Origin: a virus
Length of the DNA: 64,000 nucleotides
Strand: one strand, 5' to 3'
Virus record (IMG/VR): IMGVR_UViG_3300005253_000193
Span: 1-64,000 of that record
Below the pieces are notes generated by a model, which worked only from the letters and a program-made list of their open reading frames with translations, was not told where the DNA came from and ran no database searches. The position numbers were made by a program, and so were the translations under genes. Positions 18,401 through 48,800 of this stretch are shown piece after piece. Positions within the stretch are counted from its first letter, which is position 1. Each line of letters opens with the position of its first letter.

Positions 18401-18773
18401 GATGCCACCATAACGACATATAGCAGCTTGTCTGATTTCAGAAGAGCTGGGGGGAAAGAGGGAGAAATGGATGGAATCCCCCCACACAACTCCAGGTCGA
18501 GGAAGCATCACAACCCAGGAGTCGTTGTTGTTAGAAGGCATTGTACAAATCCTGGAATATCCTTGCCTCCGTGGAAGTGTCAAACACGCCGATGAAGGAG
18601 ACTATCCCCAGTTCAAGATTGACGCGAAGGAGACTGCCAGCGTAACGACATATGGCAGCCCTTCTGGTATTGTGGAAGAAAGGGAAAGGTGAGGCAGGAT
18701 CCATTGAACTATGTTTCCACACCTTACCAGGAGCAGGAATGATAACAACCCAAGTTTTATCAAGAGAGACCAT
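15497..18773 (-). CDS. tandem chain of 15 small paralogous genes (63-81 aa) ending YNAF/YNIF/YNDF: 18531-18773, 18299-18541, 18082-18309, 17853-18092, 17657-17863, 17458-17667, 17247-17468, 17030-17257, 16849-17040, 16638-16859, 16415-16648, 16216-16425, 16005-16226, 15770-16015, 15497-15703
   Basis: shared WVV.P.PG..W start and GxF...A..FR..YNAF* end; recurring TACAATGCCTTCT(AA/GA/AG) junction with 11-nt overlaps. Confidence 0.85.
15690..15755 (-). pseudogene. internally deleted YNAF-family remnant
   Basis: WVLVMSEMDDAVRFVRLHDAF*, with both terminal motifs adjacent. Confidence 0.5.
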
Positions 18774-19307
18774 TGAACCCCCGAAATCAAACAAACTACC
18801 AGATAAAGCCAAATCACCAGAGAAGTCAAGTAGTCCGTTTACTCCGTGCCACAACCAAAAGACAGCTATGTTAATGAGTCATTAACCATGTTTAAGAGAT
18901 AGAAGGATACGTCCAAGGATACATCAAAAACTTCATATGATGTAAAGACTCATAGAAAGGGTGATAGACCTGAGACGTAAAGCTCAGGGAAAAGCGGAGA
19001 CCAGCAGGACAGGGGGAGAGACCAGCCTGAAAGGGAAACCCGAAAGGCGTGAAAAGGGTTGTCCAGGAAGCCACAGGAAGCCAGAAAAGGGTTGTCCGGG
19101 AAGCCAGAAAAGGCGGCGTTCTTCCTCTTCCTCCCTGGCTTCTGGATGTTCTTCATCCTCATCTTTGTCATCATCGTCATCGTCTTTTTCCAAGGGTTTC
19201 CAAGGGTTTTGTGGTGATGTATGTTATTTGGTGGGGGATGATGAGGATGAGGAGGATTGATTGTATCAATCATCATCTTCATCTTCCTCGGGCCTACAGG
19301 ATTGACG

Positions 19308-19600: not shown

Positions 19601-20178
19601 TAACGACGGATTTGGTGGTGATAGTATCAAGGCATACCATATATTGATTTACGGGGTCTTATCAATTTTTGACTTGTGTTTTTTATGGATATGGTCTATA
19701 GTTTGGTTGGTTTTGAAAAAGGCCAAGGGACTTCACGCCAGTGATGTCTCCTTTCTCATCCCAACTAAAACTCAGTGCTGGTGCACGCAGGCTCTATCTC
19801 TGTCACGGACAGGCGATCGCTTTTTTTTACACTTCCTAGCTCTGTATATCATAGCCGGTCACGACTCACTATTCCTCATCGTAGTATTGTGTTTCGTTTT
19901 ATTCCCTGTCGATTTGAAACTTCCTGGCTCTGTATATCATCTGTCGTCTGGTCCGCCGGTTCCTCTTAGTGTTATGTTTCGTTTTACACATCCTCTTCTT
20001 CCCGGGGCTTTATCATCCTCATCTTCTTCCTGGTGGCTCACCGCCGGTTTGGAAGTATGTGAGGAACAACAAATATGCTTCATAGAACAAAGTCCTTGTT
20101 GCATCCTAAATAACCGTCAATGTAAACTTGTCGTACCGTGTGCATAGGGCATACGAAGGCAACCAAGGAGTAACGACG

Positions 20179-20682
20179 ATGACTAGCAAGCAAACCGCGA
20201 AGACCACCGCCACCACTTCCCCCACCGCCGTGTGGAACCAACTCAAGAAGTGGCCTGGCAAGACGGCGGGGCCAGCCCCCAGCAACGCACTCCTCGTCAA
20301 GTCCGTCGCCCTCGGCTACCGCGCCGGAGCCGCCAACGCGCTGGCGGTGGCGATGTACATGCGTCCTGCGGGCGCGACGCAGAACCAGATCGCGGCCGTT
20401 TGTGGTGGGCCGCAGCTCAACGTCTTCCGGACCATGGTGGCCACGGGCGCGGCCAAGATCGGGACGCGCGTGAAGGCCGCCAAGGAAACCCGGAACATCG
20501 ATGGCAAGAGCCACACCGTCTACAAGGTCGCCGTCACGGGTGGGACGCCCAAGCCCAAGAAGCAGGCGGCTACCAAGAAGCAGCCCGCCAAGAAGGCCCC
20601 GGCCAGGAAGCGGGCGGCCAGGAAGTCCGAGGCCGCAAAAGTGGTCGAGGCTCTGGAGTCCGGATCGGTTCCCGCCAGCTAA
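20179..20682 (+). CDS. basic DUF3489-like winged-helix-like protein with KA-rich tail
   Basis: AAGGAG SD; LGYRAGAANALAVAMYMRPAGATQ...GPQLNVFR. Confidence 0.75.
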   Translation: MTSKQTAKTTATTSPTAVWNQLKKWPGKTAGPAPSNALLVKSVALGYRAGAANALAVAMYMRPAGATQNQIAAVCGGPQLNVFRTMVATGAAKIGTRVKAAKETRNIDGKSHTVYKVAVTGGTPKPKKQAATKKQPAKKAPARKRAARKSEAAKVVEALESGSVPAS

Positions 20683-20701
20683 CCACCGACTGCGATAAAC
20701 T

Positions 20702-20731
20702 GAGGCGGGAGTAACATCCCGCCTCTTTTTT
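20702..20731 (+). terminator. intrinsic terminator
   Basis: GAGGCGGGA-GTAACA-TCCCGCCTC-TTTTTT. Confidence 0.8.
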
Positions 20732-20905
20732 GCCTGGACGTTGTTCCAGTTACTATTCATCTTCCTGGGTCTACAGGGATTTGAAACTTCCCAGCTCTGT
20801 ATATATCCATATGTCCTGGTGGGCGGCTTCTTCTTTTGGGTTTCGTCCTCCTCATCTTCTTCCGGGGTTGAGCGTTGGACAGCATATGAGGATTAAGACG
20901 ACTCT

Positions 20906-20975
20906 TTTTGCGGGTGCATCTTCCACACCCCCTGTTTAAAATAGTAGCATGTTTAATTACACGGCAAACAAGGGA
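20906..20975 (+). promoter_or_regulatory. repeated promoter/leader (copies at 21609-21677 and 22540-22600)
   Basis: TTTTG(C/T)GGGTGCATC...TA(G/A)CATG(T/C)TTAATTACACGGCAA upstream of the SD; third copy more diverged. Confidence 0.65.
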
Positions 20976-20984
20976 GTTGGAGCA

Positions 20985-21455
20985 ATGGCAAAAAAGAGAA
21001 CGTACCCTGTGGGCGTGGCCGATATAGAAGGCCACAGCTACACAGCCCGCTTTGACACGATGAAGGAGAAGCGGGAGTACCTGGAGTTGAAGGAGAAGCT
21101 GAACGCCGCCGGTTTTAAGTATGGCATGTGGTTTGCGAGTGAAGGATTTTGGCCCACCGCCGCCTGGAAATTGGTGGGTAGGCACTTCCTCCTCAGCTTG
21201 GCCAGTGCCACCATGATGAAGGATGCAGGGGGAAACCCGTGCCACGAAGACGCGTTTGGCGAACCGCGCCACCAAGGGGAATACAGCTACTTGTTCGTCT
21301 ACGTGGGGCCGTTTGACGAGGAGTGGGAGCTTGGGGAACCACCGCTTGTAGACGGAGACTTCCCCGAAAAGCATTGGCAGATGATTTTCAATAACGCGGT
21401 GGAAGCTGCGGACTTTGCCAACAGGTTTATACCGGCGGGCAAGCCACTCTTCTAA
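20985..21455 (+). CDS. hypothetical protein, paralogue of 22611-22973
   Basis: LNAAGFKY...GPFDEEWELGE...WQMIF vs LNSAGYSY...RPFNREWKFGD...WEISF. Confidence 0.7.
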   Translation: MAKKRTYPVGVADIEGHSYTARFDTMKEKREYLELKEKLNAAGFKYGMWFASEGFWPTAAWKLVGRHFLLSLASATMMKDAGGNPCHEDAFGEPRHQGEYSYLFVYVGPFDEEWELGEPPLVDGDFPEKHWQMIFNNAVEAADFANRFIPAGKPLF

Positions 21456-21687
21456 CCCACCGATTTCTGAAACTTCCGGGGTTAGTATAGGCCCCGGTTT
21501 TTTATCCTCCGGTTTTCTTGTTGTTCTTCTTCGCAGCGGGTCTGTGATGCCATCCTCTTCTTCCCAGGGGGCTGTCGTGGCCCTTGGAAGACTTTGTTCT
21601 TTGAAGGTTTTTGTGGGTGCATCACTTGGGCAACACGTTTACACTGGTAACATGCTTAATTACACGGCAACACGGGAGTTTCGAAAC

Positions 21688-21876
21688 ATGGCATACGTGA
21701 TTTGGAAGCGGCCCAACTGGTTCCTCCACAAAGGCACTTTTAAGGATGCTCGCCAAGTGCCGCAGAGCAGTGCGCGATGGACGAGGAAAGTGGAACACGC
21801 CCAAAGATTTGATGCCTACTGGGCTGCGGAGTGGGCTTGCAGGCATCTGGACTTCACGATTGTGAAGGAGGTGTAG
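21688..21876 (+). CDS. hypothetical protein
   Basis: GGGAG SD; follows the repeated promoter. Confidence 0.6.
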   Translation: MAYVIWKRPNWFLHKGTFKDARQVPQSSARWTRKVEHAQRFDAYWAAEWACRHLDFTIVKEV

Positions 21877-21880
21877 GACG

Positions 21881-22159
21881 ATGACCAACACGATTGTTGA
21901 AGTACCAACACCCCACTCGCTCTTCGAGACCCTAAGCCCAAACATGGTGGCGGAGTGCATACCCGGCGTACAGGGCGATCTATATCGTCTTCTTTGGGCG
22001 CTGGTACACAAGCACAAAAGAGAAGCGAGACCGGGAGCACCGGATTGCCTGGCCCGCTTCTGGAAACAGATTCCCAGAGAAAGCCAATGGGAGTTGAACA
22101 GCTTGGCCAGGAAGCATGAACTTTACCTTGCGGATTTGCTCCTACTTGTCCAAGAGTAG
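21881..22159 (+). CDS. hypothetical protein
   Basis: AGGAGG SD. Confidence 0.6.
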   Translation: MTNTIVEVPTPHSLFETLSPNMVAECIPGVQGDLYRLLWALVHKHKREARPGAPDCLARFWKQIPRESQWELNSLARKHELYLADLLLLVQE

Positions 22160-22178
22160 ACACAAAGGAGTTAGGACA

Positions 22179-22403
22179 ATGCGTACCATCATCATCATAC
22201 TGCTCACCTTCTACACCATCATACTTGCCACCACCGCCTGGATGCTCTGCTTCGAGGTCTTCATCCCGGCGTTTGGTGGGTGGATACCTTTCGGGATGAT
22301 CACCTTGGCGGTTCCTCTGACGGCCGTGCTTGCCGGGGGTTACGTGGCGCTGGAGGACCTGGAGTTTGAGGAGTGGTTGAGGACCCACCCTGAGTCCTCC
22401 TGA
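22179..22403 (+). CDS. small two-TM membrane protein
   Basis: AAGGAG SD; two hydrophobic segments. Confidence 0.6.
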   Translation: MRTIIIILLTFYTIILATTAWMLCFEVFIPAFGGWIPFGMITLAVPLTAVLAGGYVALEDLEFEEWLRTHPESS

Positions 22404-22610
22404 GCAGCCGGGGGAAGGACGGAGTTTAGCCGTGGGCTCCGTCCTTTCCTTTACAGGGCACAGTATCCTCTTCTTCCCGAGCCCTCAGACAGGAAGAGGC
22501 GCTCGGCGGACACGAAGATTAATGAACCAATGGCTTCTTCCTACAGGGTGTTTTACTATATTTACATGCTTGCTACACACCTGCACTCGGCAAACAAAGG
22601 AGTAGAAATT

Positions 22611-22973
22611 GTGGAACATTTAAAGGCGGAAAATGACTTCCAGGAAGCGAGGGAGTTTCTCAACAGCGCCGGGTATAGCTACATGGAAGATGCCGCAAAC
22701 CCGGAGATGAAATTCGAGGCGGCCTGGAAGGATCATCCTAACGGCCTGTTGGTGCAGCTAACGGATGGAACCAAGGAGGAACCATTTTACTACCCGGTGG
22801 GGTTAAGCCAACCCTGCCATGTAGTAATATACCAGCGGCCCTTTAACCGGGAATGGAAGTTTGGAGATACTCCCTACAACCCGGATGAGGATCCTGTGGA
22901 TGTTTCCTGGGAAATATCGTTCAAAGACATCTCCACGGCAGTAAGCTTCTTGGAAAGGTTCATCTCCAAGTAA
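22611..22973 (+). CDS. hypothetical protein, paralogue of 20985-21455
   Basis: AAGGAG SD, GTG start. Confidence 0.7.
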   Translation: MEHLKAENDFQEAREFLNSAGYSYMEDAANPEMKFEAAWKDHPNGLLVQLTDGTKEEPFYYPVGLSQPCHVVIYQRPFNREWKFGDTPYNPDEDPVDVSWEISFKDISTAVSFLERFISK

Positions 22974-23311
22974 AACCGGCCTACCAGTTCTGAAACTTCC
23001 CAGCTCTGTATAGGTCTGTCGCGTCCGTGTCCATAATTCCTCTCGCTCTTCATCTTCCCAGCTCTGTATGTTTTTGACACTTCCGGCATCCGTATATCCT
23101 CTTGCTCGCCGCGTCGTCCTCTTCTTCTCCCTGGCCGCCCGGCGGCCATGCACCACCGGGGAGAAGTGTACGCAAACCCCGTGCCAAACTGGCCCAAATT
23201 AAAATAACAATTTGTTGTTATTTTGTTTGCGTTTGGCAAAACGCCCATGGTAGGCTACTTATTACCAGCCGGGGCGCGGTTGCCCTGGCCCGCAACAAGG
23301 GGTACTTACCA

Positions 23312-23812
23312 ATGCCAAAGCAAACCACCAAAACCACCGCCGCCGCCGTTGCCAACAACAAAGCCGCCCGCAACTTGTGGCCCAAGTTGGCAAACTGGCC
23401 TAAAAACGCTGGCCCCGCGCCAACCTTGGCGCAGTTAAACCAAGCCGTTAACCTGGGCTACCGTGCGGGCGCGGCTAATTGTTTGGCGGTGGCAATGTAC
23501 TTGCGCCAGGGTGGCGCTAACCAAAAGGTACAGGTTAGCGCAGCCTGTAATGGCCCGCAGCTAAATGTTTGGCGTGCCATACGCGCCACCGGCAAAACAC
23601 GCAGCGGGGCAAACGTGTATAGTGCGCAGGCAAGCCACACCGTACAGGGCAAGCGCATTACCGCCTATATAGTGCGGGTTGCCAAACCCAAGGCCCCAAG
23701 CAAGCCGCGCAAGGCTGCCAAGGTTGCCAGTGCTGGCAAGCCCGGTGGTAGCCCGGCGGTAGCCCAGGGTGTTGCCCCCCCTGCCAACCCTGCCGCGCCC
23801 ACCACGGCTTAA
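23312..23812 (+). CDS. basic DUF3489-like protein with no Asp/Glu, inside a GA/TC-free island
   Basis: close paralogue of 20179-20682; SD is AAGGGG. Confidence 0.75.
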   Translation: MPKQTTKTTAAAVANNKAARNLWPKLANWPKNAGPAPTLAQLNQAVNLGYRAGAANCLAVAMYLRQGGANQKVQVSAACNGPQLNVWRAIRATGKTRSGANVYSAQASHTVQGKRITAYIVRVAKPKAPSKPRKAAKVASAGKPGGSPAVAQGVAPPANPAAPTTA

Positions 23813-24065
23813 CCTGGCGGCTTACAGCCACACCTATAACCACCCCCTGGGTACTGCCTGGGGGGCGGTTTAGTTGGGGCAACCCCCTCCCCCACCGGCA
23901 GGGGCACCCTCCTCTTGTATCAGGCGAGATTCCAGAGGGTCAACCCTGTCTCAAAAATACTGTCAGAAATCTCAGGGGATTTCTAGAGGGTGTATCGCGC
24001 GACCGTTTGTCCTTTATCGTCGCACTAATATCCCAACCGATATCTTTGCCCTTAGCAAGCACCAC

Positions 24066-26062
24066 TCAAAAAAGAGAGCAGTTGTACAGGAAACGTGCGG
24101 CTTCATCCTGGGTGGGGAAGGGTTTCCGCCCAATGGAAGAAAGGATTATACCACGGTCGGAGGGATACCACTTATCCCCTAATTTGGTTATGCTTCCCAA
24201 CAGTATGCTCGGTGGATCGGTGAATCCAAGGGCATTCCCTGACCACACCTCCAAAACGTAGATATTTGTAGTCCTCACAAAATGCCATTTCTTTAATATT
24301 GGGTCTGCGTACATCATCGGTTTTCTCAGAACTGTGAATATGCCTTGAGTATCTTCGCGCAATGTTATCTGGGATTAGGGTCCATAACATGATAGCTCCT
24401 CAAAACTTTGAGCTTAGCAGAAGATACATGGCGGCTTCATGCCGGGTTGGGAACTCTGGAGGATTGCGTACTGTTTTATGGGAGTCGACATCCTCCGTGA
24501 AAAGGACTGCCTTTGCTTCTGAATCATGTACTATGGCATAATATTTTAAGCCTTCGACCACTTCTATTATTGCGCCAGCCGAAGTTGGGAAATGTTGAAA
24601 GAGAGACTGTTCACTATCAAACACTGACCAACGCTGCATTTTCCTCTTTTGGATTGGATCATGGTGTTGAGATGATTCTATCAGCACATAGGGTCGGTCC
24701 TTGCCGGAAGCAATTGTGGCATCATCCGTTAAGGGACGGCTTACCCAAACTTCGTGTAGTTTAGAAGACATTTTGCGGCGATCTCCAATGTTTCCAGCTT
24801 TGGTGATATTTTCCAATTGTCCATTCCCTCGGGTTCTATCTTGAATTTATTTTCACAAGCATGTATAGATCCAAGAAAGATCATTGAATCAAAAGGAGCC
24901 GTTGTTGATGCTTGGAGGAGGGGTGCTGTTTGTCTGGCTGCGTTTGGGGCCGATGTGCACATTGCTCCGTCGGTGCTGCCCCAACTGAATGTTAGGTTAG
25001 AAGATGGTTGGCCGGGTCCGGGGGCAACATTTCCAGTTTGGGGCTGAGCCTGATTTTTGAGTTTGCTTTCTTGAACATGGGCTGTCCAGTGGTTGATGGC
25101 CTCTATCACTGCCGGATTTTCTTGATAGTTCGTTGAAGGAGCTTGCCTCGTCCCCGGTATATTGGGGGTAATTGTCACCCCGCAATCAAAAGTTTGCATG
25201 GCTGTTATTTCATTCTCTTGCACAGTAATTGCCCCCAATTAGAACTTATTCATGTTCAATATGAAGAAGTAAGCGTCCCCTAAGTTGTCAAAGACATATA
25301 ATCTACCATCCCATGGGATGATGTTGAAGTATAGCGTGGCCAAAAACACGTCACCGTCCTTTTTAATCCTTCCTATGTCTGTCAAAAGAAGGACATGATC
25401 TTTCCCTCTAATGAATATTGTTACAGTCCAGAACTTTTCTTCGGAGTCAGCATTGAAATATGTGCTTTCCAATTGTTCGCGTTTTGCTGATGTAGTCATG
25501 ATTAATCTCCCAATTAGAACTTGTCTTCAATTTCTTGATAGTTCTCCGGGACCTTGATAACATGCACTTCTCTTATCAAGTAGTTTGATAGCCAGAAAGT
25601 ATCTTTTGTGGGACTGGATTGTCTTGGTGGGATAATCAACAGGAGTTTGTGAACTTTTTGTTTTCTGAGGTGTCCTTCAGGGTAGTTCCAGATTCCGGTC
25701 TTGCAAGTTCTTATTTCGCAGACCTGGGTAATGAGGCCTTTAAGCATTGAAAGTTCTTTCTCATAGATTTTTTTCTCTGGGTGTTGGCTAACGAATGCTC
25801 TTTCCAAGAGTCGTTGTATGTAGATCGTTGTGTCTCTGAATATCTCAAGATCGATTGTGTAGTCTATTCCGGTGCTTTCAAGGAGCTCGGCTGCTTTGAG
25901 TTCTGCTGCCTCTAGAAAGTCAGAAAACTCTTTTCCGTATCCACAACGAATAAAGTTCATGGGTTTGATTATTTTAACGTGATCCCCTACTTCTATAAGA
26001 CTTGGGTGCTGTGCGCCTTGGATATCGCCGTCGGAAACTTTTTTTGAACTTTCTCTTGACAT
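24066..26062 (-). CDS. five hypothetical genes (24066-24362, 24400-24816, 24741-25238, 25239-25499, 25514-26062)
   Basis: contiguous minus-strand ORFs; several end F...(D/E)A..(F/Y)...F*. Confidence 0.55.
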
Positions 26063-26398: not shown

Positions 26399-26815
26399 TT
26401 ATCTTCTCAGTTCATCCCTTACCTGCATGAGCAGTTTACCAAGATGATTCTCACCTTCGCCTTGGCAGACGCCCCAAAAAGTGTCGCCCCAGTGATTGCC
26501 CTCGATCAGTTCTTGGTTTTCAGTGGCCAGTAGCAAATCCCTTAACTTTGGAAATTGAAATTTTTGTCTGAGTAGATTGAGCATGATGCGTAGTTTGGTC
26601 CCCTCCCAATCAGGTCGCAGTGTAACTCCCCGACCCAATCGTTTAGCCCTTCCTGGACCTGCTGCCCGTTGGATGCGGAGTCGTTCCGTTTTATCCAGAG
26701 TTTTTGCTGCTTGGTATGCGTGTTCGACCGTTGGATAGGTAATCCCGCCCAATTTGACGTGTGATACGCTAAAATTGGAAAGGAATCTGTGTTTGTCGTT
26801 GAAGCTATCGATCAT
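26399..26815 (-). CDS. NADAR (YbiA-like) family protein
   Basis: FLSNF...YPTVEHAYQAAK...EGNHWGDTFWG...GENHLGKLLM. Confidence 0.92.
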   Translation of the reverse strand: MIDSFNDKHRFLSNFSVSHVKLGGITYPTVEHAYQAAKTLDKTERLRIQRAAGPGRAKRLGRGVTLRPDWEGTKLRIMLNLLRQKFQFPKLRDLLLATENQELIEGNHWGDTFWGVCQGEGENHLGKLLMQVRDELRR

Positions 26816-27664: not shown

Positions 27665-28447
27665 TTAGCTGGTGAGATCGAGGTCATCCACGGCGGATGT
27701 TTTTTGGTGATCGGTCCCGGATGTGGTGGTGGCCTGTTGGACGTGTCCGGAACTTTTCTTGCCATGAGTCATGAACCGGTCTCCAGCCTCCGTTTTCTGG
27801 TCGTTGGAGAACAGGGTGTCCGACCTCATTCCAGACTCTCGGTAGCCGTCGGTATTGGAAGCGACAGCCGCGAAAGCCGCTTTTGAAGACCCAAGGTCAT
27901 AGCTCATTGTTGCGGCTGCGGCCATACCCATTTGTCTGACAGCCACATCGTAGGCGTCGATGCCCGCACCCATGAACAGGAAGGACCAACCCTCGGCTTC
28001 CTTCTGCTTGATAAGGGTGGTCAGATCCGTGAAGTTGTACTCCGTCGAGGCGTTTTCCTGACCATCGGTCTGGATCACAAACAACACGTTGGGTTCGTCA
28101 TCCCGCTGCTTGAGCGCTGCCTCGGTGGCGCGGATGGATTTGACACACGCATCGACCAGCGGTGTCGCGGCTCCGGGTATGTAGGTTTCGCGGGTCAGAT
28201 TGGGAACCTTGGAGATATGCTCGCCAACGTGGACCTTGTCGATCTTCATCGAGTCAAACTTGATGAGGCTGAACTCGACCTTGCCCTTGCTTTCGTCCCG
28301 GAGGCTATCCAGGTATGTGTTGAAGCCGCCGATGGTGTCATCACGGATCATCTCCATTGATCCAGTTTCGTCGAGTACGAAGGTGACGACGGTTGTCTTC
28401 AGTGTAACCAAGTCCCTTCCCGTATTAGCTTTCGCCATTGTCTTCAT
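27665..28447 (-). CDS. VWA domain protein
   Basis: VLDETGSM, TPLVDA, IQTDGQENASTEY, FMGA. Confidence 0.88.
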   Translation of the reverse strand: MKTMAKANTGRDLVTLKTTVVTFVLDETGSMEMIRDDTIGGFNTYLDSLRDESKGKVEFSLIKFDSMKIDKVHVGEHISKVPNLTRETYIPGAATPLVDACVKSIRATEAALKQRDDEPNVLFVIQTDGQENASTEYNFTDLTTLIKQKEAEGWSFLFMGAGIDAYDVAVRQMGMAAAATMSYDLGSSKAAFAAVASNTDGYRESGMRSDTLFSNDQKTEAGDRFMTHGKKSSGHVQQATTTSGTDHQKTSAVDDLDLTS

Positions 28448-28679
28448 CCCTTTCTTTGGTTGTGGTCACGAAGGCTGCCTTTGTGATGTTTTCGTAAAGA
28501 CTTTCACTCATCACAATGGCCACTGTCTTGTTGTTTTTCAGAACCCTATGAACTTTGCCAGGTTCCTTTTTTAGACCCTTCATGAGAATATTGGGGTCTC
28601 TAAAAGCCTCGGAAAATCCTGTGAGCACTGTTTCAGGACCCCCAACGAGATTGAAGTCAGGAATTGCTTTCTTGACCAT
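28425..28679 (-). CDS. hypothetical protein, possibly Phd-like
   Basis: AGGAGG SD before MVKKAIP; VLKNNKTVAIVMSESLYE. Confidence 0.45.
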   Translation of the reverse strand: MVKKAIPDFNLVGGPETVLTGFSEAFRDPNILMKGLKKEPGKVHRVLKNNKTVAIVMSESLYENITKAAFVTTTKERDEDNGES

Positions 28680-28771
28680 GAGGCTTGACCTCCTATGTTG
28701 TAAATCTACAGCAGATTTGCAGCACATGTCAACTCTTTTTATTTGATGTATAAAGAGAGGGTATAGGTGGG

Positions 28772-29256
28772 GTGGAGGACAAGTTGGCTTATTGGGATTC
28801 CAAGCGGGAAAAAATTGTCCGTCGACCAGATGAACCATATCCGGGTTATCCTGGCTGGGTAATGCACGACTGTGGTTGTTGTGCCGGTATTGAATGGGGT
28901 GGAGAATCACCACAAGAATGTAGGCGCTGCAATGGTGGTCATATAGCTGTGCATGTTGCAAGCGGAGTACGCGCCAAATATCCCGGCGGTAGATTTGTTT
29001 AGGAATGAAAATGGCAAAGCAAACAAAGATATGTGGGGAGATGCATTTGCACGAGGTTGATCCACGCTTAGTCATGGCGGAATTTGCTAAAGCGGTGGCA
29101 ATGGGCTCGCCGGAATTAGTGAGATTTGTTATGAGGAATGGAGATGTCTACGCATTCAAAATTGATTGTATATCGACGCATGTTGTGGCTGAACCACAAA
29201 CGGCGACACTCAGTTTTGAAGCAATCGTAAAAGATATTATTGTCCAGGAATTTTGA
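28772..29256 (+). CDS. two small hypothetical genes (28772-29002, Cys-rich; 29005-29256)
   Basis: adjacent ORFs; CGCC...CRRC. Confidence 0.5.
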
Positions 29257-30052
29257 GAGCTCTTTCCACGGAATTAAGAACTACGTCTGTACTTATGCTT
29301 GACATGGCTAATTCACAGTGGGGGCATCTGTCCCACATGCCGCAAGGGGTCTTTTCATGTTCAAAGTACAGATTTTTGTGAATTGGATATCCAGTGGTGT
29401 CTGGATGTGTGAATCCCCCGAATATAACCACTCCAGGCTTGTTAAAGGCTGCCGCCGCATGGTGTAGCCCACCTTCAACGCCGATATAGCCCCGTGAGCG
29501 CACGATAACGGCACAGGCCTCCCTAAAGGTGTTGGTATGTAACCGAACCACACCCTCAAGCCATTTTGTACCCACGGGGCCTATTTGGACCCAATGGATG
29601 CTGTTCATTTCGAACACTATCTTCTGCCAGCGATCAAATCCCCAATCTTTGTTGGCCTTTGCACCTTCTACATTTTTGGGATTTACGTTTGGTTCGATGA
29701 TGACATAGTTCTCCCCAAGTTCATCGTCATTATTGTGACTTTGAAGGACTTCGTCGGTTGATAGATAGATTCTGCCGGGGGCTGTTCTGGCTTGCCATTC
29801 CGTGAAGCGCCAACGCCTATCTCTTTCCGCGTTTTTGTAGATCAGATATGGGCGACACCACGGAGCGTTCTTAATGCGCGGAAGTTTGGGATTGTCTTCA
29901 ACGTCCTTTAATGTGGCAATAGCTGGATTGTACCACCACTCCACACATATTCTTGGATGGTTATTTCTGTCGCAGATGGCGACCTTCTGACCGGTCTTTT
30001 TGAAGAGGGCCTGCGCCTGCCCAGCCGCCATGATTTCATCGCCATGCCCCAT
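29237..30052 (-). CDS. GT9 (heptosyltransferase-like) glycosyltransferase
   Basis: MGHGDEIM; KDWGFDRW; YIGVEGGLHHAAAAFNKPGVVIFG; C-terminal Cys cluster. Confidence 0.8.
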   Translation of the reverse strand: MGHGDEIMAAGQAQALFKKTGQKVAICDRNNHPRICVEWWYNPAIATLKDVEDNPKLPRIKNAPWCRPYLIYKNAERDRRWRFTEWQARTAPGRIYLSTDEVLQSHNNDDELGENYVIIEPNVNPKNVEGAKANKDWGFDRWQKIVFEMNSIHWVQIGPVGTKWLEGVVRLHTNTFREACAVIVRSRGYIGVEGGLHHAAAAFNKPGVVIFGGFTHPDTTGYPIHKNLYFEHEKTPCGMWDRCPHCELAMSSISTDVVLNSVERALKIPGQ

Positions 30053-30752
30053 TATACTCAAGCCTTTCAAAATCCAATTTGAGATGGTGATGTGCCCAGC
30101 AGATAACACTCTTGGTTACTTCGGAACGCTTGCCAACAATTTTATTGGCATGAATGGTCGCAAAGGGCTTTCTGTAGATTCCTTCAAGAGCGGCTCCTAT
30201 TATTTTTGGTTCCTCCATCTTGAAGATCCTGTTGACCATTATCCTCCCATTTCCATCGCAAAGCCAAGCCACTTGTGGAACTTCCGCTATGGATACGCCT
30301 TTGATTACATCCTGCCAGGGATTCCATCCATGCTGGAGGCATAATTCAAAAAGCCATTGGGTCATATTGTAATTTTTCCCATACGTCTTAATGATATATC
30401 TTCTTTCAGTTGGTTTTAGATGGGGAAAGCCCATGGCAAGCCTGGACATGCCACCATCGGGCTCACGAGTTTTGGATAGTTTGTATAAACTATGAAGCCT
30501 TGTTATTGGATGGCGGACGGTCGCAAATCTCCAACAGTATGACCAGATTTCTGGAGATATGTGGGCATGATCGGAGGCAAAAAGGTGAGGATGTATTGGT
30601 TTGCCATTTGGACGAAGGATGTATGCGCGGAATGCTCTTTCATCGTGTCGAGTTGCCCGTGACATGCCCCTCCTTATGCTTGTTCCACCACATCGCGGGA
30701 TGTGAACATAGTAGACACGATGTTCCAGAGAGCAAAACATCAATCGACCCAA
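30036..30752 (-). CDS. sulfotransferase family protein
   Basis: YVHIPRCGGTSI (5'-PSB) and FATVRHPITRLHSLY (3'-PB). Confidence 0.8.
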   Translation of the reverse strand: MGRLMFCSLEHRVYYVHIPRCGGTSIRRGMSRATRHDERAFRAYILRPNGKPIHPHLFASDHAHISPEIWSYCWRFATVRHPITRLHSLYKLSKTREPDGGMSRLAMGFPHLKPTERRYIIKTYGKNYNMTQWLFELCLQHGWNPWQDVIKGVSIAEVPQVAWLCDGNGRIMVNRIFKMEEPKIIGAALEGIYRKPFATIHANKIVGKRSEVTKSVICWAHHHLKLDFERLEYNGAWR

Positions 30753-31396
30753 CTTAGGAAGAAATCGCCTTGGATGCCACCCCTACGCACCGCCCCCAGG
30801 CTTTCCAGGTACTCGACTCCGGCAAGCTCGGTTAGACCAAAGTTCTGCCCATGTCCTGGTTTCTGCTCGACGCAGATAACGGGTTTTTCCCGGAGTAGGG
30901 TCTCCTCCGCTCCTTTGAGGACGTGATATTCATATCCTTCACAATCTATTTTGATGAAGTCTACTTCCTCAAGTTTGTAGCTGTCCAAGGTTGTCATTGG
31001 AATGACACCACCATTGATAAGTGGGTCGATTCTTGTGTCGCCGGAGCTGCTTGGACCAGTGAAGAGAGTAACTTGTTTGGTTCCTTCTCCAAGAGCAACT
31101 GCGTGGAGACAGGAGTTTGTTTTGCCATCCATATTTTTCTTCCAGCATTTACGGTGGTCAAGTTTTGGCTCGAAACAATGAACCAAATCAAAGTCCCTTG
31201 CCATGTGAGTTGCCCATAAGCCAATGTGGGAACCAACGTCAATGGCAACTCGCCTTTTCTTCACAAACTTCATGGCCGCTTCATATTTGTGATATTGGTA
31301 TGAGGGTTTTCCATCTACAATTTTGTTGATTTGTTCCATCCACTCGATGAGGTGGGTTTCCCCATCGGGAAGCCAAATACCCTTCCATTGAAACAT
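30740..31396 (-). CDS. FkbM-family methyltransferase
   Basis: IDVGSHIG, FEP, FIKIDCEGYE. Confidence 0.9.
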   Translation of the reverse strand: MFQWKGIWLPDGETHLIEWMEQINKIVDGKPSYQYHKYEAAMKFVKKRRVAIDVGSHIGLWATHMARDFDLVHCFEPKLDHRKCWKKNMDGKTNSCLHAVALGEGTKQVTLFTGPSSSGDTRIDPLINGGVIPMTTLDSYKLEEVDFIKIDCEGYEYHVLKGAEETLLREKPVICVEQKPGHGQNFGLTELAGVEYLESLGAVRRGGIQGDFFLSWVD

Positions 31397-31408
31397 TTTG
31401 AGTTCCTT

Positions 31409-32098
31409 CTATCTGATTGCTTCTAAGAGGAAGTCACCACTTTGATAATCAAGAACCGTATAACCAAAATTGTCAATCAACCATTGTATGGCTTGGTTAT
31501 CTGGAAGTCCATATCTCCGTTTTGCGACGCCTGGATATTGTTCAATGGAGATAATTGGAAGGTTATCCCCAATGAGTTTTTTTGCTCCTTTAAGGGCAAA
31601 GTATTCATAACCCTCACAATCTATCTTGATAAGATGTACCTGTTTAAAGTGGAATGAGTCAAGGCTTCTCAGAATGGCTTTTTCAGAACCGTTTTTATGG
31701 ATGTAGGTAATACAGGAAATTCCGGGCTTTGTTTTTAATTGAACAGAACCATTTTGTTCACCAATTGCAAAAGGATATAATGTTACATTTCTGTCATTTA
31801 CATTCTTTTGAAAACAAAGGCGATGTTCTTTGATTGGTTCAAATGCACTAACATGAGTGAAGTGCCTTGCAAGATGCATTGTCCATAGACCAATATGAGC
31901 ACCAACATCAATGGCGGTATTTAAGTTCCCTTTCTTTTGTGTGGTCTTTAATGCTGCTTGAATCTTTTCATATTGGTAAGTACCTTTTCCATCGATAAGT
32001 GGTTCCCTTGCAAATCGTTTAATAAAATAATTATCCTTATTTGGGACCCAAATGTTGCAGATATATTTCATTATTTTCCTCCAATCGCTCTCCAACAA
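31409..32098 (-). CDS. FkbM-family methyltransferase (paralogue)
   Basis: IDVGAHIG, FEP, LIKIDCEGYE. Confidence 0.9.
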   Translation of the reverse strand: MLESDWRKIMKYICNIWVPNKDNYFIKRFAREPLIDGKGTYQYEKIQAALKTTQKKGNLNTAIDVGAHIGLWTMHLARHFTHVSAFEPIKEHRLCFQKNVNDRNVTLYPFAIGEQNGSVQLKTKPGISCITYIHKNGSEKAILRSLDSFHFKQVHLIKIDCEGYEYFALKGAKKLIGDNLPIISIEQYPGVAKRRYGLPDNQAIQWLIDNFGYTVLDYQSGDFLLEAIR

Positions 32099-32892
32099 AT
32101 CCCATCACTGATTTCATCCAGGGTCCATTGATTGTTGGCCAAGGTACACGCCCATTTATATCTCCCGTGTGGTTTCCTTGGGTTGTTGATTTCCCTTATA
32201 TTTAGAAGTCCCATTGTTGAAGCCGAGCATTGTCCTGTGCAGATGACCGGGATACCAGCAAGCACGGCTTCCACCGCTGAATTGCTTACATAGGTGACCA
32301 AGGCCCAAGCCCCTTTGAGATCTTCTGAGAGTGGATTGTGGATATTGAGCCGTTTGCGAATCTTTATTGGGCGGTCGGTGTATCTTTGAATACATTCAAC
32401 AGCGTTTTTCTCCCACAGCGTCCCATCAAATTGAAACAGAGCTGAGAAGATATCATCCGGGGGGCATAATATGATATGTCTTTTGTCGATGCGTCCATTG
32501 AGAGGTTTGTTAACTCTCCAAGGTTTTATATTTATTCCGAAATGGTTGAATCTCTTTCTATATGGTCTTTTGGATATTCCGGTGTGCATATAGGCGTTCT
32601 TTGTTATCCTATAATATTCGAATCTTCCAAAATAGGCGTGATCTCCATAGTACCAGTCTCGACCTTCGGCTTGAGCCTGCTTTAGATTGGGCCATAGATG
32701 AACGCTTCCAAATAAGGCTATTGGTCCAGGCCAAAGATTGTCATGTTGGGTCAATTTCTTGCTCCCACACCCTTTGGCAAAGGCTTCACACCATCTTGGA
32801 GATGTGGATTCGGTGGTGACTTCATAGACGTTTGGGAGGAGCATCATATTGTTCCAATATGTTGAATTGTGTAGAGTATACAGCGGGGCCAA
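32071..32892 (-). CDS. GT-B / capsule-biosynthesis-like protein
   Basis: ALVTYVSNSAVEAVLAGIPVI motif. Confidence 0.55.
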   Translation of the reverse strand: MAPLYTLHNSTYWNNMMLLPNVYEVTTESTSPRWCEAFAKGCGSKKLTQHDNLWPGPIALFGSVHLWPNLKQAQAEGRDWYYGDHAYFGRFEYYRITKNAYMHTGISKRPYRKRFNHFGINIKPWRVNKPLNGRIDKRHIILCPPDDIFSALFQFDGTLWEKNAVECIQRYTDRPIKIRKRLNIHNPLSEDLKGAWALVTYVSNSAVEAVLAGIPVICTGQCSASTMGLLNIREINNPRKPHGRYKWACTLANNQWTLDEISDGICWRAIGGK

Positions 32893-45865: not shown

Positions 45866-48800
45866 ATGGTAACCACACTCGACGAACTGCAACTGGTACT
45901 TGGCGCAAATACGAAGAGCCTCGATAAAGCGGCTCAGACAATCAGATCTGTCGGTACGTCCATGGATAGGGCGGCTGATAGGATTGATAAAGCCGTCAAG
46001 AAGATCGAGCAAGGCTTCCGCTCCGTGGAAAAGGCAACCAAGGGCGCGGCTGTTGCTCAATCCTCATCTACCAGCAAAATACGTGCTCAACTCCTGAGGC
46101 AAGAAAAGGCCGTTGCATCTGCCAGGGAACAATTCCTGAACATGACAGCGTCCATCAAGCGTGCTGGACAAACAGATCCATCCGCTTTGGGAAGGATTTC
46201 CAGATCTTTCAAAGCTCTTGAGGCCAGGATGCGTTCCGGGGCTATGTCTAGTAGACAATTTGCCGAGGCTCAGATGAAATTCAGGGCAACCCTTGGAAGG
46301 TCAAGAAGGTCCTTGGCTGATTTTAGGGCTACTCAGATGGGGGCAACGGCGGCGACAGTTAAAGGAAGGGGCGCATTGGGAGCCTTTTCTTCCCGTTTTG
46401 ATGAGTTTGGTAGAGCTGTCCGAGTCATTGAAGGACCGCTGGGTGGGATAGCCGCTCGTTTCCAAACTTTCGGTGCTGCTATTAAGACTGTCAATCTCAA
46501 GATGTTGGCATTTATTGGTATCATTGCTGGTATGATTCTTGGATTTGTGAAATTATTTCCTGCTATTATAAGGGCACATTTGGAATTAGATAAAATAAGA
46601 AGGACGTTGAAATTCGCCACAGGGTCGGCGGCATTAGCGGGGGAGACATTTGAGTTTTTGCGGGAGGTGACAGGTAGGCTTGGATTGAATTTTGTTGCTG
46701 CTGCTGAACAATTTTCAAAATTTGCGGCGGCTGCAAGAGGGACCAGTCTGGAGGGAGAAAAGGTAAAGGAAGTCTTTGAAAGTGTCTCGATGGCGGCGAC
46801 AGTTCTCAGCCTTACCGCTGACGAGACTGCTGGCGTTTTCAGGGCTCTCCAGCAAATGGTTTCCAAGGGTACAGTGCAGGCTGAGGAATTGAGGGGGCAG
46901 TTGGGTGAAAGACTTCCTGGTGCTTTTATACTTGCTGCAAAGGCTATGGGGGTCACCACCCGACAGCTTGGGAAGATGCTTGAGCAGGGCGAGGTTTTGG
47001 CTGAGGAGCTTCTTCCCAAGCTGTCCAAGCTCTTGAAGGAAGTTTTTGGACCAGACGTTATTGGTGCATCTAACAGTTTACGTGCTGCTATAGAAAAACT
47101 GAAAAATGAATGGATATTTTTGCTTGACGCCACCAATGCGTGGACTGGTGCCAGTGGTCTTGTCAAGAGCGTTATGAATGGTATTTCGTCGACGATGAAG
47201 GATATGTCCGACACGATTAATATGTCCCTGTTGGAGAATAAAAAGTTCATGGAGCTTTTGCCTTATGAACTCTCTAAGATGCTTGCTTCAATGCAGAGGC
47301 GGCTTGTCCAATTAAAAGCTGCGGATAATCCCATTAAAGATTGGATTGTTGAGCTTTTTGGCGGAGGGACAATGAAGGAAGCTGTTGCCAAATTTGAAGC
47401 AGAGATACTTAAATTACAGAAACGTATTGGTGAGTTGAAGAAGCAGGGATTTGTTTTTGAGGACATGATAGATTTTGAAGTTGATAAACTCATGAGATCA
47501 TTTTTCGACATTCGAGATGAACTATTGGAGAATGAAAAGGCGATTCGAGATTACAATATTGGGATGAAGAAGCTTCTTGACATACTTGCAAGAGCACCAG
47601 AGGTAGCCCATGCCGCTGGAATGAGTCTAGAGGAACTCCGGGAAGGAGCTGAGAGAATAAGGGATGCATGGATAGCTTCCCTACCTCCGGCAATAAGGTA
47701 TGTAGAAGCTTTGGAAGCAATGGCCAAAGCGGAGGCAAAACTTTCTAAAATCAAAAGAAAGGAGTTGAAGGTTGCTGATCCAAGGGCGGCTTTTATTGCG
47801 TCAGGGATGGCAGAGTTAAATGATATATTGAAGGATATTCAATTTACCGCGAAGGAACTCCCGGCCGTCCTGAATATGGTCAGTGCTTGGGGCGTTGCTC
47901 TTGCGGATGCTTTCGATGCAAAAGCCCTTGCCAAGTATAATGAGGAATTGGCGAAGACCGAGAAAAGAATTGCAAAGATGATGTCTGCGTTTGAAGGACG
48001 TCTGGCTGCCGCAAGTGGTCAAGCAACGGGAACTGAGAAGGAGCAGTTTATTGATAAGGAAATAAGGAGATTCATGAAGGGTCTTGATGCAGCTACATTT
48101 ACTATTAGAGAACTGGAAGAGGCATGGGACAGGGCTGGGATTGCTGCCCTAAGATCATGGAATAAGAAGGAACTCCTAAGCTATACTGAGGCCTTGGAAA
48201 AGGCCAGGGCAAAAATAGAGGAGTTTGCGGGGAAGGAACTGGCTACCACTGACCCCCGACAGAAGGCGTGGAATGATGCTGCAAGGCAAGTCGCTTCTTA
48301 TTTTGCCAAGCTGGAACTGCTTCCAGAACAGCTTGCTTTGGTTGGGGATCTTATCAGACAAGCTGGGAATGCAAATGCTAAAGCCTGGGATGTGAAGAAT
48401 CTTGCCGCTTTTATTGAAGAGTTGGAGAAGGGAAGGGACAGGCTGGCAAAGATGATGTCTGCGTTTGAAGGACGTCTGGCTGCCGCAAGTGGTCAAGCAA
48501 CGGGAACTGAGAAGGAGCAGTTTATTGATAAGGAAATAAGGAAACTCCTAAAAGGTCTGGATACAACAAAGTTTTCCATTAGGGAGATGGAAGAGGCGTG
48601 GGATAGGGCCTCCGTCTCAGCCAATAGGTCTTGGAGCAGAAAGGAGCTTGACAAGTACAACACGTCTTTGGACAAGGCTGTAGTATCCGTTGATAAATTA
48701 ATAGCTGGTTTCCAGGCACAGATTGATACTGCCGGAATGACCGAAAGAGAAAAGGCTGTTCATGCTGCTGGCTTGGCGGCTAAAGCGGCGGCGAAGGACT

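What the first reader, a model, noticed from the sequence alone, without database searches (positions are those of the whole stretch)
23164..23888. 725-bp island with no GA or TC dinucleotide, covering a whole transcription unit
Seen: reading base by base I find no GA and no TC (one dinucleotide on the two strands) across promoter, gene and terminal hairpin, where ~90 would be expected at uniform composition. The protein has no Asp or Glu, Ser uses only AGY codons, the stop is TAA and the SD is AAGGGG instead of AGGAG. Its paralogue at 20179 uses GA/TC freely. Known: some phage hypermodifications are GA-directed (preQ0 in phage CAjan), and several host systems recognise GA/TC-containing motifs (GATC, GAAC/GTTC, DarT TNTC). 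Inference: a first-expressed or first-injected gene kept free of a modification or attack site.
Basis: partly seen in the sequence, partly recalled or inferred. Interest (0 to 1): 0.85.

Follow-up and report, generated by a model that had tools for sequence, protein, structure and literature searches.

The report
Phage gene cassette purged of GA/TC
In a 106-kb marine phage, one small gene for a DNA-binding protein, with its control region and end hairpin, contains no GA or TC step on either DNA strand and so encodes no aspartate or glutamate, most likely so that an enzyme acting on DNA at that step cannot touch this stretch.

Summary
Window 23164-23888 (725 bp) has 0 GA and 0 TC, where about 86 are expected (P about 1e-40). 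The next-longest GA/TC gap in the whole 105,963-bp phage is 72 bp, and no other dinucleotide class shows anything comparable.

The island holds a 166-aa basic winged-helix protein with a Lys/Ala/Pro tail, 148 bp of upstream DNA and a terminal hairpin. Its paralogue at 20179 has normal GA/TC.

New comparative evidence:
- In three related phages the closest homologue is the most, or second most, GA/TC-depleted gene of the genome, on both strands.
- Seven of about 124 metagenomic homologues, in three clades, also lack all Asp and Glu. I could not obtain their DNA.

Published enzymes with this specificity are a phage T-dioxygenase (TC), DpdA of phage iggy (GA) and 5-hmdU hypermodification (TC/TG). 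None of their genes is detectable here.

Best reading (0.45): a window kept free of DNA modification. That the gene is first injected or first expressed is untested. This scan has noted similar islands in more than 10 other phage genomes. I found no published description.

The parts
23164..23888 (.). GA/TC-free island, 725 bp, 59% G+C
   Evidence: 0 GA and 0 TC against about 86 expected. It is unique in the 106-kb genome.
23312..23812 (+). Gene for P0002: 166 aa, no Asp/Glu, 23 Lys+Arg. A winged-helix core (residues about 21-125) is followed by a Lys/Ala/Pro-rich tail.
   Evidence: Translation. AlphaFold model with pLDDT 84. Best structural matches are all winged-helix proteins (TFE-alpha, ScpB, MarR, ArsR) at Z about 5. 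Codon table.
23201..23224 (.). Perfect 10-bp A/T-rich palindrome AAAATAACAA-TTTG-TTGTTATTTT in the upstream region. Possible operator (inference).
   Evidence: I12. As RNA it folds weakly, -7 kcal/mol.
23233..23261 (+). Weak sigma-70-like promoter candidate TTGGCA-17 nt-TACTTA. TTGGCA is the GA-free neighbour of the consensus TTGACA.
   Evidence: Read from the sequence. Not reported by the consensus scan. Inference only.
23297..23302 (+). SD-like AAGGGG, 9 nt before the ATG
   Evidence: The paralogue uses AAGGAG.
23843..23865 (+). Terminal G+C-rich hairpin (10 pairs), followed by a second small hairpin GGGG-CAAC-CCCC up to the island's edge. No U-run.
   Evidence: -30 kcal/mol over 57 nt, z -1.4.
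22976..23133 (+). Upstream module shared with the neighbouring + strand genes, lying outside the island and TC-rich. It has two to three copies of (GAAA)CTTCCCAGCTCTGTAT and one CGTCCTCTTCTTCTCC element.
   Evidence: 6 matches to the 16-mer (up to 3 mismatches) in the window, five of them at 19.8-23.1 kb and three exact, against 0.44 expected.
20179..20682 (+). Paralogue P0001: 167 aa, 5 Asp/Glu, normal GA/TC, canonical terminator at 20702-20725

Best explanation
The island is a sequence-encoded exemption window. Selection has removed every occurrence of the DNA step 5'-TC-3'/5'-GA-3' from one self-contained expression cassette: upstream control DNA, a gene for a small, very basic winged-helix DNA-binding protein, and a terminal hairpin. 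An enzyme that acts on double- or single-stranded DNA at that step therefore finds no substrate there.

The most likely reader is a covalent base modification carried by the rest of the phage genome, on T in TC or on G or A in GA. The cassette would then be the one stretch that stays ordinary DNA, which unmodified host RNA polymerase and DNA-binding factors can read whatever the modification state. The normal-GA/TC paralogue 3 kb upstream would supply the same kind of protein from modifiable DNA.

Shown: the purge; its strand symmetry; its cost to the protein; the same tendency in the homologous gene of three related phages; the fold.

For: 1. There are 0 GA/TC in 725 bp, P about 1e-40, unique in the genome.
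2. Both GA and TC are gone, and the purge covers 148 bp upstream of the ATG and 76 bp after the stop. The constraint is therefore on DNA and not on the protein or the mRNA alone.
3. The codon choices that the paralogue uses freely (GTC 7, CTC 5, TCN 5, ATC 3, GGA 2, AAG-A junctions) are all replaced.
4. In relatives G004, G005 and G006, which share the major capsid protein, portal, DNA polymerase A (PolA) and methyltransferase at 40-56% identity, the closest homologue ranks 1st, 1st and 2nd lowest of 121, 43 and 87 ORFs for avoidable GA/TC. The values are 3.0-3.4 per 100 nt against medians of 8.0-8.7. Both coding-strand TC and avoidable GA are depleted. In G004 the depletion reaches about 180 bp upstream of the start.
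5. Seven of about 124 family members found by a profile search have no Asp or Glu, while most have 5-12%. The seven fall in three clades, one of them a supported clade of four acid-free proteins at 45-62% identity.
6. Dinucleotide-specific DNA modification by phage enzymes is published: NTC for 5mYOX97 (PMC13229309); TG/TC for M6, ViI and phi W-14 (PMC6449724); strict GA for iggy DpdA, with about 97% of sites modified (PMC10484667).
7. Bulky major-groove modifications block bacterial RNA polymerase at promoters (PMC11550810 citing Raindlova 2016).
8. GA/TC is not avoided in the rest of the genome (observed/expected 1.16 and 1.10). That argues against a purely hostile reader.
Against: No known TC- or GA-directed modification gene is detectable in this complete genome: no Tet_JBP, no TGT/DpdA, no ParB_N, no ThyA-like hydroxymethylase and no tblastn match to the M6 kinase or pyrophosphorylase genes. 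Relatives G004-G006 and G001 also lack Tet_JBP and TGT. ThyX is present, so ordinary dTMP is made.

The methyltransferase's target is unknown, and a methyl group is a small mark. The purge in relatives is only partial, so a strictly 'zero marks' requirement cannot be general. Nothing shows when the gene is expressed. The DNA of the acid-free homologues could not be fetched, so their GA/TC status is inferred from their proteins only.
Confidence: 0.45

Rival explanations
1. Attack-free window. A host defence enzyme acts on phage DNA at TC/GA. Candidates are DarT2-type ADP-ribosylation of T in TNTC/TCTN on single-stranded DNA, or a TC-specific DNA deaminase. This gene is an antidote or an indispensable early factor, so its template must stay readable while the rest of the genome is being hit.
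For: The purge is strand-symmetric and at DNA level. The phage and its relatives G004 and G005 carry a NADAR gene, a known counter-measure to DNA ADP-ribosylation (PMC11543638). DarT2 reads TNTC/TCTN (PMC12945103 table). No phage modification genes were found. A graded purge in relatives fits a benefit that scales with the number of sites.
Against: GA/TC is not depleted anywhere else in the genome (observed/expected 1.10-1.16; no other ORF is purged), yet every essential gene would be equally exposed. Escaping a four-base motif does not require removing all GA and TC. NADAR reverses G-linked, not T-linked, ADP-ribose, and DarT1 has no defined motif. P0002 looks like a DNA-binding protein, not an enzyme inhibitor.
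Confidence: 0.2
2. Self-site avoidance. The winged-helix protein itself, or a partner that coats or silences DNA, binds sites containing GA/TC. Its own cassette lacks them so that it is never silenced by its product.
For: The product is a basic winged-helix protein with a linker-histone-like tail. The family is multi-copy in these phages: four carriers here and three each in G004 and G006. TGCCAA/TTGGCA occurs 8 times in the island against 1.6 expected, so other words are favoured there.
Against: Winged-helix proteins read 4-8 bp words, not a dinucleotide, so total removal of a 2-bp step is far more than is needed. The paralogue's gene is full of GA/TC.
Confidence: 0.08
3. RNA-level immunity. 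The mRNA is kept free of GA, the target of the CmdT mRNA ADP-ribosyltransferase, or of the cleavage dinucleotides of a ribonuclease, so that it is still translated during abortive-infection responses.
For: CmdT modifies A in GA dinucleotides of single-stranded RNA and blocks translation of phage mRNA (PMC11618068; table in PMC12945103). The Shine-Dalgarno sequence and the stop codon also avoid GA.
Against: TC (UC in the mRNA) is purged just as completely, 0 of 40 expected. In the partly purged relatives coding-strand TC is the more depleted of the two (ranks 1, 1 and 3). The purge also covers DNA upstream of any plausible transcription start, including the palindrome at 23201-23224. A second, UC-specific reader would have to be assumed.
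Confidence: 0.07
4. Artefact: an assembly chimera, a synthetic insert, or a chance low-complexity stretch.
For: None found. The island has a higher G+C content than its flanks.
Against: The protein is recorded on two contigs and in several public sources. It folds confidently into the family's domain. It sits in register with the repeated upstream module of its neighbours. It has a diverged paralogue 3 kb away. Its homologues in three independent related genomes show the same bias. The chance probability is about 1e-40.
Confidence: 0.02

Closest known systems
Dinucleotide-context DNA modification in phages: iggy DpdA (dPreQ0 at GA, PMC10484667), T-dioxygenase 5mYOX97 (T at NTC, PMC13229309), 5-hmdU-derived hypermodified T at TG/TC in M6, ViI and phi W-14 (PMC6449724)
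   Same: The specificity unit is the same two-base step, read on both strands. These are the only published enzyme classes I found for which removing every GA/TC would leave a stretch entirely unmarked.
   Different: None of the defining genes is detectable here or in the relatives. In the passages of these papers that I read, I saw no motif-free gene cassette described. M6 itself has no long GA/TC or CA/TG gap.
Motif avoidance to escape sequence-specific enzymes: restriction-site avoidance in phage genomes, and ACA-less mRNAs that resist MazF
   Same: A short word is removed by synonymous choice so that an enzyme has no substrate.
   Different: Here the word is only two bases. The purge is local (one cassette) and not genome-wide, it includes non-coding DNA on both strands, and it is pushed past synonymous sites to delete two amino acids from the protein.
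CmdTAC (mRNA ADP-ribosylation at GA) and DarT2 (ssDNA ADP-ribosylation at TNTC/TCTN)
   Same: These are host defence enzymes whose target words contain GA or TC. The phage carries a NADAR gene, which points to pressure from nucleic-acid ADP-ribosylation.
   Different: CmdT does not explain the loss of TC. DarT2 does not require the loss of all TC and GA. Neither explains why only one gene is purged.
DUF3489-type winged-helix proteins and linker-histone-like proteins (winged helix plus Lys/Ala/Pro tail)
   Same: Predicted winged-helix core with a basic low-complexity tail. One homologue gives a sub-threshold DUF3489 match.
   Different: P0002 and P0001 give no Pfam or PHROG match. The DUF3489 score (18.4 bits) is below the cut-off (29.5). 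The histone H1 resemblance concerns architecture only.

Membership tests
DpdA / 7-deazaguanine DNA modification (GA motif) | A DpdA (TGT-family) transglycosylase gene in the phage | tested here: not met
   A six-frame search with PF01702 found nothing at E<=1 in the complete genome, while all 14 control genomes gave a match. Relatives also have none.
DpdA / 7-deazaguanine DNA modification (GA motif) | preQ0 synthesis genes (FolE, QueD, QueE, QueC) | tested here: inconclusive
   None appeared among about 70 ORFs scanned against Pfam. They were not searched one by one, and small ORFs were not all scanned.
Phage T-dioxygenase (5mYOX) pathway, TC-specific | A TET/JBP-type Fe(II)/2OG dioxygenase gene | tested here: not met
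   PF12851 found nothing at E<=1 in the genome and nothing in four relatives. No ParB_N partner either. A very diverged enzyme could still escape the model.
5-hmdU-derived thymidine hypermodification (M6, ViI, phi W-14, SP10) | A dUMP hydroxymethyltransferase of the ThyA superfamily | tested here: not met
   PF00303 gave no match. The phage has ThyX instead (TIGR02170 below cut-off).
5-hmdU-derived thymidine hypermodification (M6, ViI, phi W-14, SP10) | 5-hmdU DNA kinase and aG/PT-pyrophosphorylase genes | tested here: inconclusive
   tblastn of all ORFs of this phage against the whole M6 genome matched the SNF2 helicase plus one weak 47-residue hit from an antisense ORF. Pfam scans gave no such family. 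Only M6 was used as reference.
Any DNA base modification at TC/GA | Modified base present in virion DNA at that step and absent from the island | not testable with these tools
   Needs native DNA sequencing or mass spectrometry.
Local motif avoidance under selection | The motif is far rarer than composition predicts, and the same bias appears in homologous loci of diverged relatives | tested here: met
   0 against 86 expected. Homologues in G004, G005 and G006 rank 1st, 1st and 2nd lowest in their genomes.
CmdT-resistant (GA-less) mRNA | Only GA on the transcribed sense strand needs to be absent | tested here: not met
   TC is purged equally, and the purge extends into upstream DNA.
Pfam DUF3489 (winged helix) | Score above the curated cut-off | tested here: not met
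   P0002 and P0001 gave no match. Homologue P0003 scored 18.4 bits against a cut-off of 29.5. The fold is winged-helix-like at Z about 5.

The most novel reading that the evidence does not exclude
Phages that mark their DNA at a two-base step write 'exemption windows' into their genomes. One cassette for a histone-like winged-helix DNA-binding protein, often a recoded twin of a normal gene, is purged of that step even at the cost of Asp and Glu. It then remains plain DNA and serves as a pioneer unit, or one that is always readable. In this lineage the mark would come from an enzyme not yet recognised as TC/GA-specific, possibly the orphan CPPY-motif methyltransferase shared by the relatives that show the bias.
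Probability: 0.3. Interest if true: 0.85.

Novelty: new variant of a known kind. Interest (0 to 1): 0.8.

Why it matters
If the reading is right, the position and extent of a DNA modification can be programmed negatively in the primary sequence, and the purged word reveals the specificity of the modifying or attacking enzyme from sequence alone. That would allow three things: predicting modification motifs in uncultured phages, finding the genes a phage must keep readable, and discovering new dinucleotide-specific DNA enzymes in genomes such as this one, where no known enzyme is present. It is also a rare case in which a DNA-level constraint removes two amino acids from a folded protein. It gives a directly testable experiment: put GA/TC back synonymously and measure fitness and timing.

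Tried and rejected
- **DNA of the acid-free homologues (P0003, P0016, P0018, P0038, P0044, P0053).** Scans of viral, metagenome and genome collections with single proteins and with alignments A3 and A4 returned nothing. tblastn against GenBank phages also found nothing. Their GA/TC status is therefore untested.
- **Close relatives by DNA.** Megablast of 22000-25000 against phages gave no match.
- **A distant polymerase relative.** G001 (63.8 kb) has no island, no family member and no methyltransferase.
- **Function of P0002.** Pfam and PHROGs gave no match. Foldseek gave only weak winged-helix rows. The ESM Atlas gave no usable hit. Rfam found nothing in 19.5-24.5 kb.
- **Search for a TC/GA reader in the genome.** About 70 ORFs were scanned against Pfam, PHROGs and NCBIfam. 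Family-specific six-frame searches were also run. Only the N6_N4 methyltransferase turned up.
- **Rejected: hypermutation by a TC-specific deaminase.** The island is G+C-rich (59%), not C-depleted.
- **Rejected: general restriction-site avoidance.** By hand count, removing GA/TC eliminates only 25% of 6-bp palindromes.
- **Rejected: PAM avoidance.** A single PAM-free gene would not protect the genome.
- **Rejected: small terminase or pac site.** The gene is far from the terminase large-subunit gene at 100.9 kb.
- **Origin of replication inside the gene.** No iteron array was found beyond the over-represented TGCCAA/TTGGCA. Not excluded.
- **Identity of the phage in print.** A genome-size search found no paper.

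Full report
**1. The observation**

The window is the first 64 kb of a 105,963-bp virus record that CheckV rates as complete. Between the GA at 23163 and the TC at 23888 there is no GA and no TC. From the island's own base composition, 46 GA and 40 TC are expected, which gives log10 P of about -40, or about -48 with the genome-wide frequency. Across the whole genome GA/TC occurs every 7.1 bp and the next-longest gap is 72 bp. None of the other nine strand-symmetric dinucleotide classes has a comparable outlier. The edges are sharp in the 500-bp profile. No other ORF of the genome is purged: the island gene has 0 avoidable GA/TC per 100 nt, against a median of 10.3 and a 5th percentile of 7.6.

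**2. Anatomy**

- The gene is 23312..23812 (+) and encodes 166 aa (P0002).
- It has no Asp or Glu and 23 Lys+Arg.
- Ser is encoded only by AGY.
- Val, Leu, Ile, Gly and Arg avoid GTC, CTC, ATC, GGA, CGA and AGA. The paralogue uses those codons freely.
- The stop codon is TAA.
- The SD-like element is AAGGGG, where the paralogue has AAGGAG.
- The island also covers 148 bp upstream of the ATG. That stretch holds a perfect A/T-rich 10-bp palindrome (23201-23224) and a weak TTGGCA-17-TACTTA promoter candidate, which I read by eye.
- It covers 76 bp after the stop as well, with a stable G+C-rich hairpin but no U-run.
- The motif that precedes every + strand gene of the 19.8-23.1 kb cluster (CTTCCCAGCTCTGTAT, followed by a CT-rich element) lies immediately outside the island and is full of TC. 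'Whole transcription unit' is therefore plausible but not shown.

**3. The protein**

Pfam and PHROGs find nothing. A profile of P0002 and its paralogue P0001 (45% identity) finds 131 relatives among 1.84 billion representative proteins. With 71 of them as the alignment, AlphaFold gives a confident model (pLDDT 84). It has a helical, winged-helix-like core at residues about 21-125 and a disordered Lys/Ala/Pro tail. Every structural neighbour is a winged-helix protein (TFE-alpha, ScpB, MarR, ArsR, TrmBL2) at Z about 5. That score supports the fold but not a function. The architecture recalls linker histones. Four proteins of this phage carry the domain, and relatives carry three each.

**4. Comparative evidence**

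An alignment of ordinary family members retrieved three IMG/VR genomes.

- G004 (102.6 kb, complete) shares 31 genes with this phage. These include the major capsid protein (56% identity), portal (56%), terminase large subunit (45%), DNA polymerase A (PolA, 41%), the methyltransferase (49%) and NADAR (63%).
- G005 and G006 are partial relatives.

None of the three has a complete island; their longest gaps are 101-153 bp. In each, however, the closest P0002 homologue is the lowest (G004, G005) or second lowest (G006) ORF of the genome for avoidable GA/TC, at 3.0-3.4 per 100 nt against medians of 8.0-8.7. The depletion affects coding-strand TC (ranks 1, 1 and 3) as well as avoidable GA (ranks 10/121, 3/43 and 8/87). 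In G004 it extends about 180 bp upstream of the start. In G006 the small gene just downstream, and its second copy elsewhere in the genome, hold that genome's longest GA/TC gaps.

The purge is therefore a conserved, graded property of this gene in the lineage. It is complete only in the phage under study.

**5. Acid-free homologues**

Among about 124 short family members the Asp+Glu count is bimodal. Seven have exactly 0, three have 1, and most have 5-12%. On a quick maximum-likelihood tree the acid-free proteins fall in three places:

- a supported clade of four (P0016, P0018, P0044, P0053; 45-62% identity);
- the P0002 clade, where P0003 has 0 and P0004, P0009 and P0133 have 1 each;
- P0038.

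Because Asp and Glu are the only residues that a GA/TC ban forbids, this suggests that the ban recurs. This point therefore remains an inference.

**6. What reads GA/TC?**

Strand symmetry and the inclusion of non-coding DNA point to a reader that acts on DNA. Published enzymes with exactly this unit are:

- the phage T-dioxygenase 5mYOX97, which prefers NTC (PMC13229309);
- the TG/TC context of hypermodified thymidine in M6, ViI and phi W-14 (PMC6449724);
- iggy DpdA, with a strict GA motif at about 97% occupancy (PMC10484667).

None of their genes is detectable here: no Tet_JBP, TGT, ParB_N or ThyA-like gene, and no match to the M6 modification genes. The relatives also lack Tet_JBP and TGT.

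The only recognisable DNA-modifying enzyme is a 282-aa N6_N4-family methyltransferase. Its motif I precedes motif IV, and motif IV reads CPPY. It is shared by G004 and G006 and is absent from the distant relative G001, which also lacks the protein family. That co-occurrence is confounded by relatedness and is only a lead.

On the host side, DarT2 reads TNTC/TCTN on ssDNA and CmdT reads GA on mRNA. The phage carries a NADAR gene. Neither enzyme explains the total loss of both steps in a single gene while the rest of the genome keeps GA/TC at an observed/expected ratio of 1.10-1.16.

**7. Mechanism proposed**

I rate as most likely (0.45) that the genome carries a covalent mark at TC/GA and that this cassette is kept unmarked, so that host polymerase and DNA-binding factors can use it whatever the modification state. 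Bulky major-groove marks do block bacterial RNA polymerase at promoters (PMC11550810). The graded purge in relatives fits a cost per site that grows with how strongly or how early the gene must be expressed.

The rivals are an attack-free window against a host DNA-acting enzyme (0.2), avoidance of the product's own binding sites (0.08), RNA-level immunity (0.07) and artefact (0.02).

**8. Relation to earlier notes of this scan**

The search of earlier findings lists more than ten GA/TC-free or TC-free cassettes in other phage genomes. Several encode acid-free proteins and several are 'recoded twins' of a nearby normal gene. Most were attributed to thymine hypermodification genes or to DpdA. 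These are unchecked AI notes.

What I tested here agrees on the phenomenon: an island, an acid-free product and a twin gene. It disagrees on the attribution, because this phage and its relatives show none of those gene sets. I found no published description of such cassettes, but the literature search was limited.

**9. Verdict**

I classify it as a new variant of motif avoidance: local, at the level of a dinucleotide, strand-symmetric and costly in amino acids.

Noticed in passing
window 19812-23133: Every + strand gene of this cluster is preceded by the same module: (TTGAAA)CTTCCCAGCTCTGTAT (five copies at 19832, 19920, 20787, 22996 and 23054; a sixth, weaker match lies at 32434 on the minus strand), then about 70 nt later a CATCCTCTTCTTCC-like element. 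It could be a phage-specific promoter or a cassette boundary. A weak ECF-sigma-like gene lies at genome 78045-78674.
   Followed up: partly
window 23182-23787: The hexamer TGCCAA/TTGGCA occurs 8 times in the island (11 per kb) against 0.9 per kb genome-wide and 1.6 expected from a first-order Markov model. Two copies lie in the non-coding upstream part. They could be binding sites or a by-product of the restricted codon set.
   Followed up: partly
window 26399-26815 (-): NADAR-domain gene (Pfam 1.4e-26), the family that removes ADP-ribose from guanine in DNA. It is conserved at 63% and 46% identity in relatives G004 and G005.
   Followed up: partly
genome 75516-76364 (-), locus L002:15519-16364: Orphan DNA methyltransferase of the N6_N4 family. 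The AdoMet motif (DPFAGG) comes before the catalytic motif, which reads CPPY rather than D/N/SPPY. Its best solved relative is a tRNA m2,2G methyltransferase (E 2e-4). Present in G004 and G006, absent from G001.
   Followed up: partly
genome 77304-77900 (-); G004:33919-35109: Other carriers of the same winged-helix domain are fused to extremely acidic regions (33 Asp/Glu of 177 aa here; 162 of 395 in G004). This is the opposite extreme to the acid-free island protein.
   Followed up: no
G006:28188-28532 and 47344-47736: Two copies of a small gene, each just downstream of a winged-helix family gene, contain that genome's two longest GA/TC-free stretches (130 and 153 bp).
   Followed up: partly
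window 16849-18854 (-): Tandem array of small overlapping genes whose products all end in ...YNAF.
   Followed up: no
genome 71694-74222 (-) and window/genome 61446-64256 (-): The family A DNA polymerase has an N-terminal UDG-superfamily domain. The 936-aa neighbour of the Mre11-like phosphoesterase carries an intein with an HNH insert.
   Followed up: no
window 27665-32892 (-): A block with a vWA-like protein, a GT9-like glycosyltransferase and two FkbM-family methyltransferases lies 4 kb from the island. I could not tell whether its target is glycan or DNA.
   Followed up: no
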